The position numbers are program-made. A DNA stretch of 64,000 nt from positions 672,001-736,000 of the forward strand of contig JBJBCN010000002.1 in assembly GCA_047285805.1 (NCBI GenBank). Direction: 5' to 3'. Shown here piece after piece: positions 36,001 to 39,000 of the stretch. Source of the DNA: Synechococcus sp. Lineage in GTDB: Bacteria > Cyanobacteriota > Cyanobacteriia > PCC-6307 > Cyanobiaceae. Within the stretch, counting starts at the first letter, position 1; every line of letters begins with the position of its first letter.

Positions 36001-39000
36001 TTCCCTACGGGGCCTTTGCCGCCGCCACCGTCCTGGGCAGCGCGCCCCTGCTGCTGATCATGTTGCTCTTCCAAAGACAGATCATTAGTGGCCTCACCCA
36101 AGGGGCCATTAAGGGCTAACCCCAAACACCACTCCACCCGATTCGCTTCTCCGCCTGATGACCACCTCCAGTCCTGCTCGCACCGGTCTGGTTCTGAGCC
36201 AGCTCTGCCGCAGGGTTGGGCAGCAAATATTGCTGGACAACCTCAGCATGGAGGTTGCCCCTGGAGAAATCCTGGCGCTGCTGGGCCCGAGTGGCTGCGG
36301 GAAAAGCACCACCCTTCGCTGTGTCGCCGGTCTCGACCGCGCCAGCAGTGGCTCCATCGAACTGGCCGGCGAGGAGATCACTACGCGGCCGCCGGCCGAA
36401 CGCAACGTGGCCATGGTCTTCCAGAGCTACGCCCTCTATCCGCACCTGAGCGTCCGCAAGAACCTCAGCCTCGGCCTGGAACTGAGGCGCGTGCCCCCCG
36501 CCGATATTGAGAACGACGTCGAGCGCGTCCTTTCCCTGCTTCAACTGGAGGATTGCCGCGAACGCAAACCCGCAGAACTTTCGGGGGGACAGCGCCAGCG
36601 GGTAGCCCTAGCCCGAGCGCTGCTGCGGAAGCCCGCCCTGTTTTTGCTGGATGAGCCGATGAGCAACCTGGATGCCCAGCTCAGGGAGGACCTTCGCGGG
36701 GAGTTGCGGGGAATCCTGCGAAGCACCGGAGCACCTGTGGTCTACGTGACCCATGACCAACATGAAGCCATGGGCCTCGCGGATCGCATTGCCGTACTGA
36801 AGGGCGGAGAACTCCAACAACTGGACTCGGCCGCTGAGCTCTACCAAAATCCGCAGAATCAGTTCGTTGCCAGTTTCCTAGGGAGTCCTTCGATCAACCT
36901 GCTCCCCCTTCACCCCGGCGAATTGGTGGGTTTGCGGCCAGAACATCTGGAAGTGATGGAGGCCAACAGCCCATTGGCGCCCGAGTTAGCAGCCGTGGAT
37001 GCACAACGAGAGCACCTTGAATGGCTCGGGGACCGCGTCATCAGCCACTGGCGGGTTCGTGGCAGCACCGTAAAGGTGCTCTCCGATGCTCAAAGCAAGA
37101 GCGCTGCACGCGCGCAAGCCCATTACGGCCCGCTGCAGTTGCGCTGGAAGCGTGAGCATGAGCTGCACTTCGAGCAGGCCAGCGGTCGGCGGATTCGCTG
37201 ATGTGGGTTTAGTCCCAGACCGTTTCGATGACGTTCATCGCTTGCAAATAAGCCGGAACGTCCTCGCTCGTCACCGACTCGTCGTCAACAAAACTGTCAC
37301 CGCTACCGGACCGGCGCGCCAAGTCCGCCACAACGGCACTCACCACGAGATCAACCGCGGCAGGATTATCGAGGTTCTGCAGGGCCTCGGCGTAGCGGCG
37401 GCTATGGGTCGGCCTGACGGACTCCTGGCAGTAGTTGCTTAACTCGCGACTCTCAGTCATCACCGAGAAGGCGGATTGCTTGGAGTTCTGACGACCAAAG
37501 ATGGCCATGTAGAGCAAATTGATCAAGGAGGCGTCGTGGAGAGGGATGCCGTACTGACGCACGATCTGGGGCCAATAACGCAAGGAGCGCAGTCCCTCTA
37601 GACCACCCTTTGATAGGCCTGCTTCATCACACCAGGCCTCAAATTCCTCGACGTTGGCTGGACAGCGGCCGGACTCGCGCATCCGTTTCGCCAGCACCGC
37701 TCCGGCCTGGAAATTGCGGGTTGGACTGCCAGAGGTGGGAAGCATCATGCTGCCGCGCACATCGGCGACCATCGCCGTCAGTTGCGAGAAGGTGTGGTCA
37801 CGAACCTTCTCCATGTCGCCATCGCGCACCAGAGCGGCCTCAATGCGCTGGACCCCGTAACCCAATTCGGTCAGAGCAATGGGCTGTCGGTGATAGAGGC
37901 GTTGGCGATCCGTTCGAGCAATCGACACGGTGGCCGCCTGGTCCAAACACTGCTCCAGCAGCAGCGTCAACAGCGTTGGCAGAACACCAGGGTTTTCCCG
38001 GTGGAAGGTGTAGCCAAAACCAGCAAAGATCGAGGCCATGTTTTTGGCGGCCTTGATGTATTGGCCTTCGATGTTGTGAACTCCGGCTGAAACCTGGAGG
38101 TTGGGGGAGAGACGATCCAGCAGCCGTGCCCCCAATAAGGCCGTCAGGGCATTGGGATGGCAGAAATTGGCTGTGAAACTGTCGAGGGGGTTGCGAAGGG
38201 CGCCATGGCGGTGAAAGCCCGTAAAAAAGCCCAAATTAGGTGCCTTTTGGCAAAGGACATAGGCCTCATTGGAGATCGGATCGTGGGTGAAGGACCCAGC
38301 CAAACAAGCCAGAACAACGTGCTCGCGGCCGAGCTCCTCACGTAGCCGAAAGGCCTCCTGCAGGTCCTCCTCAATGTGGTTGCTGTTCGCACTCAGCACC
38401 ACCAGCTCACAGTGCTGAATCAGATACCCCAGGTCATTGAGCACCGGCTTGCCCGCCTCGGTATGGGCACCCATACGCTCGATCGTGGAGCGGTGCTCAG
38501 GGTCCATCCCCGAGAGCTCCTCGCTTTTGAACGCCCCCAGAATTTTTCGACCGGGGCGTGCCGCCAACAGCAACCGAGAGCCGTCGGTTTGCATCGCGCA
38601 GTTGTAGGCCAGCGAAGCGGGATAGAGGCCGACGCTGTAGAAGCCCACCTTGCCCTCTTCCAGCGCGATCAGACGCCTTCGGATCCGTTCAGGATCAAGG
38701 TTGGATTCGAAAAAACCGTTCTGCAAGATCACAACTGGGCCTCACACCATCCTTACGGACCATGGGAGGGTGTACGGCAGATCAGCGGCGAACTCCATGG
38801 CGCGTCTCTCACTCGAGAAGCTGCAGGAAGAGATCAGCGCCAGCAACAACATCCTCTTGATCCAGGACCTTGATGGGGTCTGCATGCCCCTTGTACGCGA
38901 CCCCCTGACGCGGGTGCTGCCGCTGGAATACATCGAAGCGGTCAGCCGGCTCGGCCACAGCTTCCGCGTCCTCACCAACGGAGAACACAGCGGCAGCCGC

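What a model noticed while it worked through the whole genome (the two positions that open the first line are those of the whole stretch)
37209..38732. Family-less 507-aa protein in the glucosylglycerol locus is a divergent NAD-type glycerol-3-phosphate dehydrogenase look [...]
g00822 has no Pfam, NCBIfam, Swiss-Prot or PDB sequence match, yet is 69-93% identical across Cyanobiaceae and other cyanobacterial orders. It lies inside the glucosylglycerol (GG) locus, divergently next to the GG-phosphate phosphatase gene stpA, between the GG transporter genes and glpD/glpK. Its predicted structure matches over both domains only NAD(P)-dependent glycerol-3-phosphate dehydrogenases (GpsA/GPD1), and it keeps as invariant residues, in the right order, counterparts of three GpsA motifs (A-L-K-N, S-R-N-Y, E-G): K229-N230, T337-R338-N339-F340, E378-G379, with a ~45-residue insertion after the first. 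Proposed: an unrecognised class of DHAP-reducing enzyme feeding glycerol-3-phos [...]
Evidence so far: No table row; Pfam at E<=0.01: none; profile of 32 relatives against all PDB sequences at E<=10: none. 636 relatives at E<=1e-3, the best 120 all 69-93% identical and named hypothetical (Synechococcus, Cyanobium, Prochlorococcus, Leptolyngbya, Aphanothece); invariant columns; motif places in g00822 and in a GpsA. AlphaFold model pLDDT 65 (N-domain 75-94, C-domain helices 84-90, 266-334 <50). Foldseek vs PDB: 14 matches at E<=1e-3; rows shown for ranks 1-10 and 13 are all G3P dehydrogenases (Dunaliella 6iuy 1.6e-4, Leishmania 1n1e, human GPD1, Coxiella GpsA 3k96), rank 14 a UDP-glucose dehydrogenase; prob 1.00 but TM 0.21-0.33 because the domains are posed differently. 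VIA-align second look: [...]
(Added by a program. Inside this text positions count along the whole contig: contig position 672,001 is position 1 of the stretch shown here. "Call 12" and the like, gene names such as g00115 and contig names such as C1 are that model's own, and its searches are not shown. The text may have been shortened before it was handed on; [...] marks where a part breaks off. The agent that wrote the report below was given it as the finding of a first reader that could run no searches.)

Follow-up and report, generated by a model that had tools for sequence, protein, structure and literature searches.

The report
Replacement glycerol-3-phosphate dehydrogenase of marine picocyanobacteria
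This unnamed 507-residue protein is very probably a highly diverged version of the enzyme that makes glycerol-3-phosphate, the backbone of membrane lipids, and it appears to stand in for the standard enzyme (GpsA), which marine Synechococcus- and Prochlorococcus-type genomes lack.

Summary
The ORF is real: window 37209-38732, minus strand, 507 aa. It has no Pfam, NCBIfam or PDB sequence match, and it is conserved.

With a more diverse alignment the model improves to pLDDT 85. Sixteen G3P dehydrogenase entries match at Z 23-27; the next family reaches 13.7. A profile comparison with cyanobacterial GpsA gives E 2.9e-5 and aligns K230-N231, T338-R339-N340 and E379-G380. The counterpart of catalytic Lys120 is Gly146, and the dinucleotide loop is degenerate.

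New here:
- **Own gpsA is dead.** The copy 18 kb upstream of the window has frameshifts, two TAG stops and Lys->Met.
- **Distribution is complementary.** Of 401 Cyanobiaceae genomes, 156 have only this family, 166 only GpsA, 37 both, 42 neither. Among high-quality genomes: 118/121/30/3.
- **The GpsA domain is absent.** PF07479 passes its cut-off in 0 of the 156.
- **No other route is visible.** 54 high-quality family-only genomes also lack ggpS and glycerol kinase.

Best reading (0.75): an NAD(P)H-dependent DHAP reductase that began as a glucosylglycerol-linked enzyme and became the housekeeping G3P source. No enzyme assay exists. The scan reached the same idea earlier on other DNA (e1-5201241); a later check felled part of it, which part I could not learn.

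The parts
37209..38732 (-). Gene for the 507-aa divergent G3P-dehydrogenase-like protein (P0001). Residues about 27-230 form the Rossmann-type N-domain. Residues about 220-440 form the helical C-domain, with a low-confidence inserted hairpin at 288-316. Residues 440-507 are a C-terminal extension.
   Evidence: ORF and translation. Model and secondary structure. Fold matches.
38619..38636 (-). Degenerate dinucleotide-binding loop, S33-V-G35-L-Y37-P38, at the place of GxGxxG. Only the middle Gly and the aromatic residue are kept.
   Evidence: Alignments: Y37 is invariant and G35 at least 90% conserved. The register against GxGxxG is my inference from the strand 29-32 / helix 36-48 boundary.
38292..38297 (-). 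G146-S147, at the position of the GPDH 'S-K-G' lysine (human K120). The lysine is absent here.
   Evidence: hhalign places the GpsA Lys opposite G146. The distant relatives P0147, P0150 and P0249 have Lys in that column.
38205..38219 (-). G172-F-H174-R175-H176, the counterpart of the GpsA 'G-P-N' loop. R175 covaries with loss of the lysine and may supply the missing positive charge.
   Evidence: The compensation idea is inference only.
38040..38045 (-). K230-N231, counterpart of GpsA K164-N165 and human GPD1 K204-N205 (carbonyl-polarising Lys).
   Evidence: Invariant in 80 of 80 aligned members. In register in hhalign. Residue roles come from PMC12874384 section 4.3, passages read.
37749..37763 (-). 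D324 ... S328, proposed counterpart of GPD1 D260 ... T264 (same i, i+4 spacing on one helix).
   Evidence: Both are invariant and lie in helix 319-329 of the model. hhalign instead pairs the GpsA Asp with S328, so the register is unsettled.
37713..37721 (-). T338-R339-N340, counterpart of GpsA S-R-N and GPD1 R269-N270 (phosphate-binding pair).
   Evidence: Invariant. In register in hhalign.
37593..37598 (-). E379-G380, counterpart of the bacterial GpsA E-G motif.
   Evidence: Invariant. In register in hhalign.
38650..40002 (+). stpA/ggpP, glucosylglycerol-3-phosphate phosphatase, divergently transcribed from P0001. The listed TTG start overlaps P0001 by 83 bp; the true start is probably further downstream.
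   Evidence: PF09506 at 519 bits and TIGR02399 at 505 bits. The divergent pair is conserved in 23 of 29 plus 5 of 5 loci.
31712..33181 (+). ggpS, glucosylglycerol-phosphate synthase, the G3P-consuming step.
   Evidence: TIGR02398 at 733 bits, above the cut-off of 569.
33178..37201 (+). ggtB, ggtC, ggtD and ggtA, an ABC transporter of the glucosylglycerol type.
   Evidence: Pfam SBP_bac_1, BPD_transp_1 twice, and ABC_tran.
41722..44872 (-). glpD (FAD-dependent G3P dehydrogenase) and glpK (glycerol kinase).
   Evidence: DAO plus DAO_C, and FGGY_N plus FGGY_C.

Best explanation
P0001 is an NAD(P)H-dependent dihydroxyacetone-phosphate reductase that forms sn-glycerol-3-phosphate. It belongs to a family that descends from the GpsA/GPD1 lineage but has diverged beyond the reach of Pfam.

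Proposed mechanism, all of it inferred:
- The Rossmann domain binds the nicotinamide cofactor. NADPH is likely, because R59 and R62 follow strand 2 and no acidic residue does.
- R339 and N340 hold the phosphate of DHAP.
- K230, positioned by N231 and S328, polarises the C2 carbonyl for hydride transfer.
- D324 completes the hydrogen-bond network.
- The second catalytic lysine of classical GPDH is missing (G146). R175 on the neighbouring loop may supply its charge.

Role in this genome: the gene sits in the glucosylglycerol locus and supplies G3P to GgpS. Because the genome's own gpsA is dead, it should also supply G3P to PlsY for all membrane lipids.

Across picocyanobacteria the family is the functional replacement of GpsA. 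Brackish Cyanobium-type genomes often carry both. Marine Synechococcus-type and small Prochlorococcus-type genomes carry only this one.
For: **Fold**
- The model has pLDDT 85 and pTM 0.83.
- 16 GPDH entries match at Z 23.2-27.4, rmsd 2.9-3.9 A, over 293-332 residues. For example, 308 of 326 residues of Coxiella GpsA align. The next family reaches Z 13.7.
- Foldseek ranks 1-25 as listed are all GPDH.

**Sequence**
- hhalign of A1 against 12 cyanobacterial GpsA gives probability 73.8%, E 2.9e-5, over 258 columns. K-N, (S/T)-R-N and E-G are in register.
- In a Pfam scan of 80 members, the family hit most often is PF07479. It is hit by 15 of 80, best E 0.0084, all below threshold. PF01210 is hit once, at E 0.0094.
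- The nearest named ESM Atlas clusters all carry PF01210 plus PF07479, with scores 0.91-0.93.
- K230, N231, D324, S328, T338, R339, N340, E379 and G380 are invariant in 80 of 80 members.

**Loss of gpsA in this genome**
- The only gpsA is at G000:C2:652797-653710.
- Against the intact gene of relative G023 it shows 127 mismatches and 7 gap columns in 919, with at least 4 frameshifting indels.
- It also has two in-frame TAG stops, Lys->Met in S-K-G and Gly->Arg in GxGxxG.
- Contigs of three runs, from one study that may be the source of this DNA, agree letter for letter at depth of about 540-585.

**Complementary distribution**
- Of 401 Cyanobiaceae genomes, 156 have the family only, 166 GpsA only, 37 both, and 42 neither.
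- Among the 272 high-quality genomes the counts are 118, 121, 30 and 3.
- PF07479 is over its cut-off in 0 of the 156 family-only genomes. The single sub-threshold hit falls on the family member itself.

**No alternative route**
- Of the 77 family-only genomes without ggpS, 1 has glycerol kinase, and none of the 54 high-quality ones does.
- Three complete small genomes lack gpsA, glpD, glpK and ggpS.
- All 6 genomes tested have PlsY, so they consume G3P.

**Independent repeats**
- In another cyanobacterial family, G619 has two copies of the family and only a decayed gpsA fragment with 3 stops.
- G681 (98% complete) and G550 (87% complete) have no PF07479 match.
- The alphaproteobacterial MAG that encodes distant relative P0249 has no PF07479 match either.

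**Context**
- In six other cyanobacteria canonical gpsA sits 0.5-4 kb from ggpS, the same kind of place that this gene holds here.

**Literature**
- EC 1.1.1.94 is not annotated in Prochlorococcus or Synechococcus WH7803 (PMC3369817, passage read).
- gpsA is reported from freshwater and SC5.2 brackish strains, but not from marine strains (PMC9361551, passage read).
Against: - There is no enzyme assay, complementation or knock-out.
- The counterpart of catalytic K120 of GPDH is Gly146. In human GPD1 the K120A substitution costs 5.3 kcal/mol (PMC12874384). The compensation by R175 is a guess resting on two clades.
- The dinucleotide loop keeps one of three glycines, and cofactor binding is untested.
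- P0001 itself has no Pfam hit even at E<=10. The hhalign probability is moderate, and hhalign registers D324/S328 differently from my reading.
- The complementary pattern follows the marine/freshwater split of one bacterial family. The genomes are kin, so the Fisher p of 8e-36 overstates the case. Many 'marine' genes would show a similar pattern.
- 30 high-quality genomes keep both genes, so the two need not be fully redundant.
- One 99%-complete cyanobacterium, G034, has neither gene. A third route, or an assembly gap, therefore exists.
- The gene's steady partner is stpA, even where ggpS is absent. The reading does not explain this.
- An earlier report of the same idea was later marked 'part of it fell'. 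Which part was not shown.
Confidence: 0.75

Rival explanations
1. It is a GPDH-fold oxidoreductase with a different phosphorylated substrate. It would work with the StpA-family phosphatase in a pathway that is not plain G3P synthesis, for example on a C1-substituted DHAP derivative or another small phospho-ketose. G3P would then come from an unrecognised source.
For: - The lysine that contacts both O1 and O2 of DHAP in GPD1 is missing (G146). This is what a change at the C1 side of the substrate would predict.
- The gene is divergently paired with stpA in 23 of 29 plus 5 of 5 loci. This includes small genomes without ggpS.
- The protein carries about 170 extra residues relative to GpsA.
Against: - The phosphate-binding R-N pair and the K-N pair are invariant.
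- This rival leaves 118 high-quality genomes without any visible G3P source, although they have PlsY.
- It does not explain the decay of gpsA precisely in carriers of the family.
Confidence: 0.13
2. The gene is only a salt-stress accessory that boosts G3P for glucosylglycerol. Housekeeping G3P in gpsA-less marine strains would come from FAD-dependent GlpD/GlpA or from glycerol kinase, as the literature implies.
For: - PMC9361551 (passage read) assigns marine and brackish strains a FAD-dependent G3P dehydrogenase and notes glycerol kinase in all of them.
- The two marine Synechococcus-type genomes tested have both glpD and glpK.
- Outside Cyanobiaceae the family always comes with ggpS (15 of 15).
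Against: - Three of three complete small genomes lack glpD and glpK.
- 0 of 54 high-quality ggpS-less carriers have glpK, yet they keep the family.
- From general knowledge, not tested here: GlpD passes electrons to quinone and runs from G3P to DHAP, and glycerol kinase needs a source of glycerol.
Confidence: 0.07
3. It is a non-catalytic relic of a dehydrogenase, a sensor or regulator that binds G3P, DHAP or a nucleotide.
For: The glycine loop is degenerate and one catalytic lysine is lost. The C-terminal extension is long, conserved and partly acidic.
Against: - The remaining catalytic constellation is invariant over sequences down to 22-28% identity.
- The family is more conserved than its neighbours: 93-97% identical where StpA is 72-87% and GpsA 75-79%.
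- A regulator would not explain why gpsA can be lost.
Confidence: 0.05

Closest known systems
Bacterial GpsA, NAD(P)H-dependent sn-glycerol-3-phosphate dehydrogenase (EC 1.1.1.94; Pfam PF01210 + PF07479), e.g. Coxiella burnetii 3k96 and Thermotoga maritima 1z82
   Same: - It has the same two-domain fold: Z 27.4, rmsd 3.1 A, 308 of 326 residues aligned to 3k96.
- The K-N, (S/T)-R-N and E-G motifs come in the same order and register.
- The inferred product and cellular role are the same.
- It occupies the same kind of genomic slot next to ggpS that gpsA holds in other cyanobacteria.
   Different: - Sequence identity is 12-15%, and no Pfam or NCBIfam model reaches its threshold.
- It is 507 aa against about 310-330. 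The extra parts are an N-terminal helix, an insert after strand 2, a roughly 40-residue insert between K-N and D324, and a 70-residue C-terminal extension.
- The loop reads SxGxYP instead of GxGxxG.
- The S-K-G lysine is replaced by Gly.
- G-P-N is replaced by G-F-H-R-H.
Eukaryotic cytosolic GPD1 (EC 1.1.1.8), human 6e90/1x0v/1wpq and Leishmania 1n1e
   Same: The fold matches at Z 25.3-26.2. Counterparts are present for K204, N205, R269 and N270, and probably for D260 and T264. The residue roles come from PMC12874384.
   Different: - There is no counterpart of K120.
- The counterpart of the flexible-loop residue Q295 was not identified.
- Cofactor preference is unknown. Two arginines after strand 2 suggest NADPH.
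Osmoregulatory GPDH of Dunaliella salina (6iuy), a GPDH fused to a phosphatase-like domain for glycerol synthesis under salt stress
   Same: The GPDH fold matches at Z 25.2. Both link to osmolyte synthesis and pair with a phosphatase: here the separate, divergently transcribed StpA-family gene.
   Different: Here there are two separate genes, not a fusion. The phosphatase belongs to another family (PF09506). The known product of the cyanobacterial pathway is glucosylglycerol, not free glycerol.
Ketopantoate reductase PanE/ApbA and other 6PGDH-like two-domain reductases
   Same: They share the general Rossmann plus helical-domain architecture, at Z 12-13.7.
   Different: They score about 10 or more Z units below the GPDH entries. 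No phosphate-binding R-N motif was compared. This was not pursued as a home for the protein.

Membership tests
GpsA/GPD1 NAD(P)-dependent G3P dehydrogenases | Two-domain fold: an N-terminal Rossmann domain plus a C-terminal helical domain, matched over both domains | tested here: met
   VIA-align gives 16 GPDH entries at Z 23.2-27.4 over 293-332 residues; the next family reaches 13.7. Foldseek gives E 1.9e-9 to 3.1e-6.
GpsA/GPD1 NAD(P)-dependent G3P dehydrogenases | Match to Pfam PF01210 and PF07479 above the gathering score | tested here: not met
   P0001 has 0 families at E<=10. Among 80 members, PF07479 is hit by 15, best E 0.0084, and PF01210 by 1, E 0.0094; all are below cut-off.
GpsA/GPD1 NAD(P)-dependent G3P dehydrogenases | Detectable sequence homology by profile-profile comparison | tested here: met
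   hhalign of A1 against 12 cyanobacterial GpsA gives probability 73.8%, E 2.9e-5, over 258 columns. This is moderate, not decisive.
GpsA/GPD1 NAD(P)-dependent G3P dehydrogenases | GxGxxG dinucleotide-binding loop | tested here: not met
   The loop reads S33-V-G35-L-Y37-P38. Only the middle Gly and the aromatic residue are kept.
GpsA/GPD1 NAD(P)-dependent G3P dehydrogenases | Catalytic Lys-Asn pair (human K204-N205) | tested here: met
   K230-N231 is invariant in 80 of 80 members and aligned to GpsA K164-N165.
GpsA/GPD1 NAD(P)-dependent G3P dehydrogenases | Phosphate-binding Arg-Asn (human R269-N270) | tested here: met
   R339-N340 is invariant and aligned to GpsA R228-N229.
GpsA/GPD1 NAD(P)-dependent G3P dehydrogenases | Asp and Thr four residues apart on one helix (human D260, T264) | tested here: inconclusive
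   D324 and S328 are invariant with the right spacing, in model helix 319-329. hhalign instead pairs the GpsA Asp with S328.
GpsA/GPD1 NAD(P)-dependent G3P dehydrogenases | Second catalytic lysine after strand 5 (human K120, bacterial S-K-G) | tested here: not met
   G146 stands in that column in the cyanobacterial members (at least 90% of the 80). Lys is present only in the distant relatives P0147, P0150 and P0249.
GpsA/GPD1 NAD(P)-dependent G3P dehydrogenases | Catalyses DHAP + NAD(P)H -> sn-glycerol-3-phosphate | not testable with these tools
   The only support is indirect: distribution complementary to gpsA and decay of gpsA in carriers.
Ketopantoate reductase (PanE/ApbA) | Best structural match over both domains | tested here: not met
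   The best ketopantoate reductase entry reaches Z 13.7, against 23.2-27.4 for GPDH.
GghA / Slr1670 glucosylglycerol hydrolase (GHL5) | Protein of about 885 aa from the GHL5 glycoside-hydrolase family | tested here: not met
   The paper's passages describe an 885-aa GHL5 protein (PMC5002435). P0001 is 507 aa with a Rossmann/GPDH fold.

The most novel reading that the evidence does not exclude
This family would be the sole housekeeping glycerol-3-phosphate dehydrogenase of Prochlorococcus and marine Synechococcus. That would close a pathway hole noted since 2012 in the most abundant phototrophs on Earth.

On this reading it arose as a salt-acclimation enzyme of the glucosylglycerol locus and took over lipid-backbone supply. 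gpsA could then be lost, as is happening now in this genome. This is also why Prochlorococcus-type genomes keep the gene after losing ggpS.

Its active site would be re-wired: the classical second lysine is gone and its charge has moved to an arginine on the neighbouring loop.
Probability: 0.65. Interest if true: 0.85.

Novelty: new variant of a known kind. Interest (0 to 1): 0.8.

Why it matters
**The pathway gap.** G3P is the backbone of every bacterial and thylakoid glycerolipid. Comparative papers have recorded that Prochlorococcus and marine Synechococcus lack an annotated EC 1.1.1.94 or gpsA (PMC3369817; PMC9361551). One of them fills the gap with a FAD-dependent enzyme that normally runs the other way.

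**What a confirmed replacement would do:**
- correct genome annotation and metabolic models for these organisms;
- give a marker for the marine/freshwater divide in picocyanobacteria;
- show a GPDH active site that works without one of its two catalytic lysines;
- explain why an apparent leftover of the glucosylglycerol cluster is kept in streamlined Prochlorococcus-type genomes.

**Novelty in print.** My searches found no paper that names the enzyme. The library lacks most subscription journals. I did not open the supplementary tables of PMC9361551, which may list the gene cluster.

Tried and rejected
**Sequence searches that gave nothing**
- Pfam at E<=10, NCBIfam at E<=10, phmmer against PDB and a 16-sequence profile against PDB all returned no match.
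- The word-index search with alignment A1 listed only close relatives and added no distant ones.
- The cluster look-up gave no names for P0147, P0150, P0249 or P0122.
- P0233 and P0253 from the representative search look like frame-shifted or low-complexity junk. I left them out of all alignments.

**Identities considered and dropped**
- GghA/Slr1670: it is an 885-aa GHL5 protein.
- Ketopantoate reductase and other 6PGDH-like reductases: Z is at most 13.7.

**Other blanks**
- The promoter and terminator scan around the divergent region found 0 promoter-like sites, and terminator-like sites at chance level.
- No RNA holder was listed for the gpsA remnant.
- SYNW0859 and SYNW0861 are in no paper.
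- The iSO595 model paper has no passage on the gene for G3P synthesis.
- The salinity transcriptome paper PMC9948718 has no passage on this gene.
- The context of the alphaproteobacterial relative is uninformative: a TPP enzyme and PNPase.
- I could not learn which part of the earlier finding e1-5201241 fell. A look-up for notes on gpsA in this genome returned nothing.

**Weaker observations, not used as main evidence**
- The gpsA of G412 has a TGA about 23 codons before its end. That genome is an 86%-complete assembly, so I do not count it as a pseudogene.
- The model of P0249 (pLDDT 69.8) also matches GPDH at Z 20.4-24.4. Its alignment is mostly the cyanobacterial family, so it is not independent evidence.

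**Not run**
- I ran no complex-prediction job.
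Full report
**1. The observation**

The ORF at window 37209-38732 (minus strand, GTG start) encodes 507 residues. 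It has no Pfam family at E<=10, no NCBIfam family at E<=10 and no PDB sequence match at E<=10.

A word-index search finds 636 relatives at E<=1e-3. The best 120 are 69-93% identical. Those that carry a name are called hypothetical, from Synechococcus, Cyanobium, Prochlorococcus, Leptolyngbya, Aphanothece and others.

- htpG;
- ggpS (TIGR02398, 733 bits);
- ggtB, ggtC, ggtD and ggtA;
- this gene, on the opposite strand;
- stpA/ggpP (TIGR02399, 505 bits);
- a GH13 gene;
- glpD and glpK;
- an MscS channel.

The residues are K230-N231, T338-R339-N340 and E379-G380.

**2. Distant relatives and the fold**

A full HMMER pass over 1.84 billion representatives gave 138 hits. Only one other full-length cluster is at 63% identity, and many hits are fragments. 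Three are true distant relatives:
- P0147: 676 aa, 30% identical;
- P0150: 662 aa, 28%;
- P0249: 429 aa, 27%.

P0147 has a weak PF01210 hit at E 0.0094.

Putting these relatives and the divergent fragments into the alignment (48 rows) raised the AlphaFold2 model to pLDDT 85.0 and pTM 0.83. Low confidence remains only at 288-316 and 476-488.

Foldseek against the PDB lists G3P dehydrogenases at every shown rank from 1 to 25. E runs from 1.9e-9 to 3.1e-6 and TM from 0.60 to 0.70 per target. PYCR and 6PGDH follow at E>=1.2e-4.

VIA-align gives 16 GPDH entries at Z 23.2-27.4, rmsd 2.9-3.9 A, over 293-332 aligned residues. Ketopantoate reductase follows at 13.7.

The ESM Atlas feature search points the same way. 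Apart from the protein's own unnamed clusters, the nearest named clusters all carry PF01210 plus PF07479, with scores 0.91-0.93.

**3. Sequence-level link and active site**

I compared the 16-row alignment A1, which includes the three distant relatives, with 12 cyanobacterial GpsA (A3). hhalign gives probability 73.8% and E 2.9e-5 over 258 columns, spanning P0001 100-425 and GpsA 39-297.

The alignment pairs these residues:

| P0001 | GpsA |
|---|---|
| K230-N231 | K164-N165 |
| T338-R339-N340 | S227-R228-N229 |
| E379-G380 | E254-G255 |

Scanning 80 members one by one against Pfam at E<=1, the most frequent family is PF07479. It is hit by 15 of 80, best E 0.0084, all below cut-off. In a genome scan, the only sub-threshold PF07479 hit in 156 genomes fell inside a family member's own gene.

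A review of human GPD1 lists Q295, R269, N270, N205, T264, K204, D260 and K120 as the conserved side chains and gives their roles (PMC12874384, passages of sections 4.3-4.4 read). Against that list:
- K230, N231, R339 and N340 are invariant in 80 of 80 members.
- D324 and S328 are also invariant. They lie four apart on model helix 319-329, like D260 and T264. hhalign registers that stretch differently, so I call the pair probable, not shown.
- The counterpart of K120 is missing. hhalign and MAFFT both put G146 opposite the S-K-G lysine. The three distant relatives keep a lysine there.
- Where the lysine is lost, the next loop reads G-F-H-R-H. Where it is kept, that loop reads G-F-H-N-A or G-W-S-Q-Y. 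I propose that R175 took over the charge. This rests on two clades and no coordinates.
- The dinucleotide loop is S33-x-G35-x-Y37-P38 in place of GxGxxG.
- R59 and R62 follow strand 2 and no acidic residue does, which suggests NADPH. This is inference.

**4. This genome's own gpsA is dead**

The only PF01210 or PF07479 match in the 100%-complete genome lies at C2:652797-653710, about 18-19 kb before the window.

I aligned it to the intact gene of relative G023, whose copy of P0001 is 97% identical. The alignment has 127 mismatches and 7 gap columns in 919. The remnant carries:
- at least four frameshifting indels;
- two in-frame TAG stops;
- Lys->Met in S-K-G;
- Gly->Arg in the glycine loop;
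- Gly->Ala in E-G.

Contigs of three sequencing runs agree with the remnant at every base, at depth of about 540-585. The runs come from one study that may be the source of this assembly. The lesions are therefore not a slip of one assembly.

PlsY, which consumes G3P, is intact.

**5. The distribution is the complement of gpsA**

I scanned 401 genomes of the same bacterial family. The protein is found in 193, GpsA (query P0275) in 203 and ggpS in 129 after dropping six weak partial hits.

| | All 401 | High-quality 272 |
|---|---|---|
| Family only | 156 | 118 |
| GpsA only | 166 | 121 |
| Both | 37 | 30 |
| Neither | 42 | 3 |

The high-quality split comes from the tallies and the quality columns. 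The 118 is confirmed.

By genus:

| Genus | Family | GpsA |
|---|---|---|
| g21 | 28/29 | 0/29 |
| g34 | 28/29 | 0/29 |
| g27 | 10/15 | 0/15 |
| g24 | 0/4 | 4/4 |
| g25 | 0/10 | 10/10 |
| g26 | 0/9 | 9/9 |

The PF07479 profile is over its cut-off in 0 of the 156 family-only genomes. In five complete genomes PF01210 gives only generic Rossmann N-terminal matches.

I call the 1.6-1.9 Mb genera 'Prochlorococcus-type' and the 2.1-2.9 Mb ggpS-positive ones 'marine Synechococcus-type'. This rests on genome size, on the names attached to protein hits and on earlier notes. It is an inference.

The genomes are kin and the split follows habitat. The Fisher p of 8e-36 is therefore descriptive only.

**6. 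No other route to G3P in the small genomes**

82 of the 193 carriers have no ggpS. Of the 77 that are family-only and ggpS-less, 1 has glycerol kinase, and none of the 54 high-quality ones does.

Three complete small genomes (G058, G051, G100) lack gpsA, the GlpD C-domain, glpK and ggpS. They have the family and PlsY.

This argues against the view in print that a FAD-dependent enzyme covers marine strains (PMC9361551, passage read).

**7. Repeats outside the family**

In a class-wide sample, 15 of 274 genomes from other cyanobacterial families carry the gene. All 15 have ggpS.

Thirteen have a PF07479 match. One of those, in G619, is a fragment covering only the last third of the gene, with three stops. 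G619 has two copies of the family. G681 (98% complete) and G550 (87% complete) show no match.

In six of these genomes canonical gpsA lies 0.5-4 kb from ggpS. This is the kind of slot the present gene fills here.

The distant relative P0249 comes from an alphaproteobacterial MAG with a single 1.87-Mb chromosome. That genome also has no PF07479 match and only partial PF01210 matches.

Against the rule, G034, a 99%-complete cyanobacterium, has neither gene.

**8. The partner gene**

stpA is divergently adjacent within 1.5 kb in 23 of 29 loci from the family scan. It is also adjacent in 5 of 5 small-genome loci, although those genomes have no ggpS.

P0001 is also better conserved than its neighbours:

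| Genome compared with G000 | P0001 | StpA | GpsA, vs G023 |
|---|---|---|---|
| G023 | 97% | 87% | - |
| G137 | 95% | 77% | 79% |
| G049 | 93% | 72% | 75% |

Why a glucosylglycerol-phosphate phosphatase homolog stays beside this gene without GgpS is not explained by my reading.

**9. Reading**

The simplest account is a diverged GPDH that first served glucosylglycerol synthesis. That would explain why every carrier outside the picocyanobacteria has ggpS, and why the gene sits in the locus. It then became the only G3P source after gpsA was lost in the marine lineages, which would explain why it is kept in genomes that later lost ggpS.

This genome shows the hand-over in progress.

What is shown:
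- the fold;
- homology at moderate significance;
- the invariant residues;
- the gene distributions;
- the pseudogene.

What is inferred:
- the substrate;
- the cofactor;
- the role of R175;
- essentiality.

**10. Novelty**

Two papers record the missing EC 1.1.1.94 or gpsA (PMC3369817; PMC9361551). None of my seven searches found the replacement named.

The scan itself reached the same idea on other DNA (e1-5201241). I saw that note after searches had given me the reading. A later check felled part of it, and I could not see which part.

I place the protein as a new variant of a known kind of enzyme, not as a member of the Pfam-defined family. Three defining features were tested and not met: the Pfam thresholds, GxGxxG and the second lysine.

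Noticed in passing
Outside the window: G000:C2:652797-653710 (minus strand), about 18.3-19.2 kb before window position 1; locus L001:961-1874: The genome's only gpsA is a pseudogene, with at least 4 frameshifts, two TAG stops and Lys->Met in S-K-G. All 24 same-genus genomes in the first sample have an open gpsA frame.
   Followed up: yes
L058:6484-7728 (-), L059:6558-7757 (-), L064:5925-7118 (-): A full-length StpA-family phosphatase (PF09506, 495-573 bits) is kept divergently beside the family member in small genomes that have no ggpS. Its substrate there is unexplained.
   Followed up: partly
G034 (another cyanobacterial family, 5.9 Mb, 99% complete): It has no PF01210 match, no PF07479 match and no relative of this family. 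Either an assembly gap or a third way to make G3P exists.
   Followed up: partly
G619: family copies at C35:19327-20829 and C231:1600-3105; gpsA fragment at L081:1447-1755: This genome carries two copies of the family and only the last third of gpsA, which has three in-frame stops.
   Followed up: partly
L066 (G412:C84:4700-6100): The closest relative of this genome (P0001 98% identical) has a TGA about 23 codons before the end of gpsA. The assembly is only 86% complete, so this could be an error.
   Followed up: partly
window 40064-41812 (+): A GH13 protein inside the glucosylglycerol locus scores 600.9 bits on the TreS N-terminal model TIGR02456, below its cut-off of 678. It may act on an osmolyte other than trehalose.
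   Followed up: no
L059:5525-6469 (-), L058:5511-6443 (-), L064:4797-5858 (-): A radical-SAM protein with DUF3641 lies next to stpA in three genomes. An APH-family phosphotransferase lies downstream of the family member (L059:9471-10634, L063:9252-10382, L064:12986-14152). The gene order is conserved but its meaning is unclear.
   Followed up: no
window 38650-38732: The stpA ORF as listed (TTG start) overlaps the 5' end of P0001 by 83 bp. The Pfam match starts at residue 67 and relatives align from residue 32-50, so the true start is probably downstream and the two genes share a short divergent region.
   Followed up: no
P0147 (676 aa) and P0150 (662 aa), metagenomic proteins without names: These distant relatives keep the classical lysine and carry long inserts after strand 2 and before the E-G motif. 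Their organisms are unknown.
   Followed up: no
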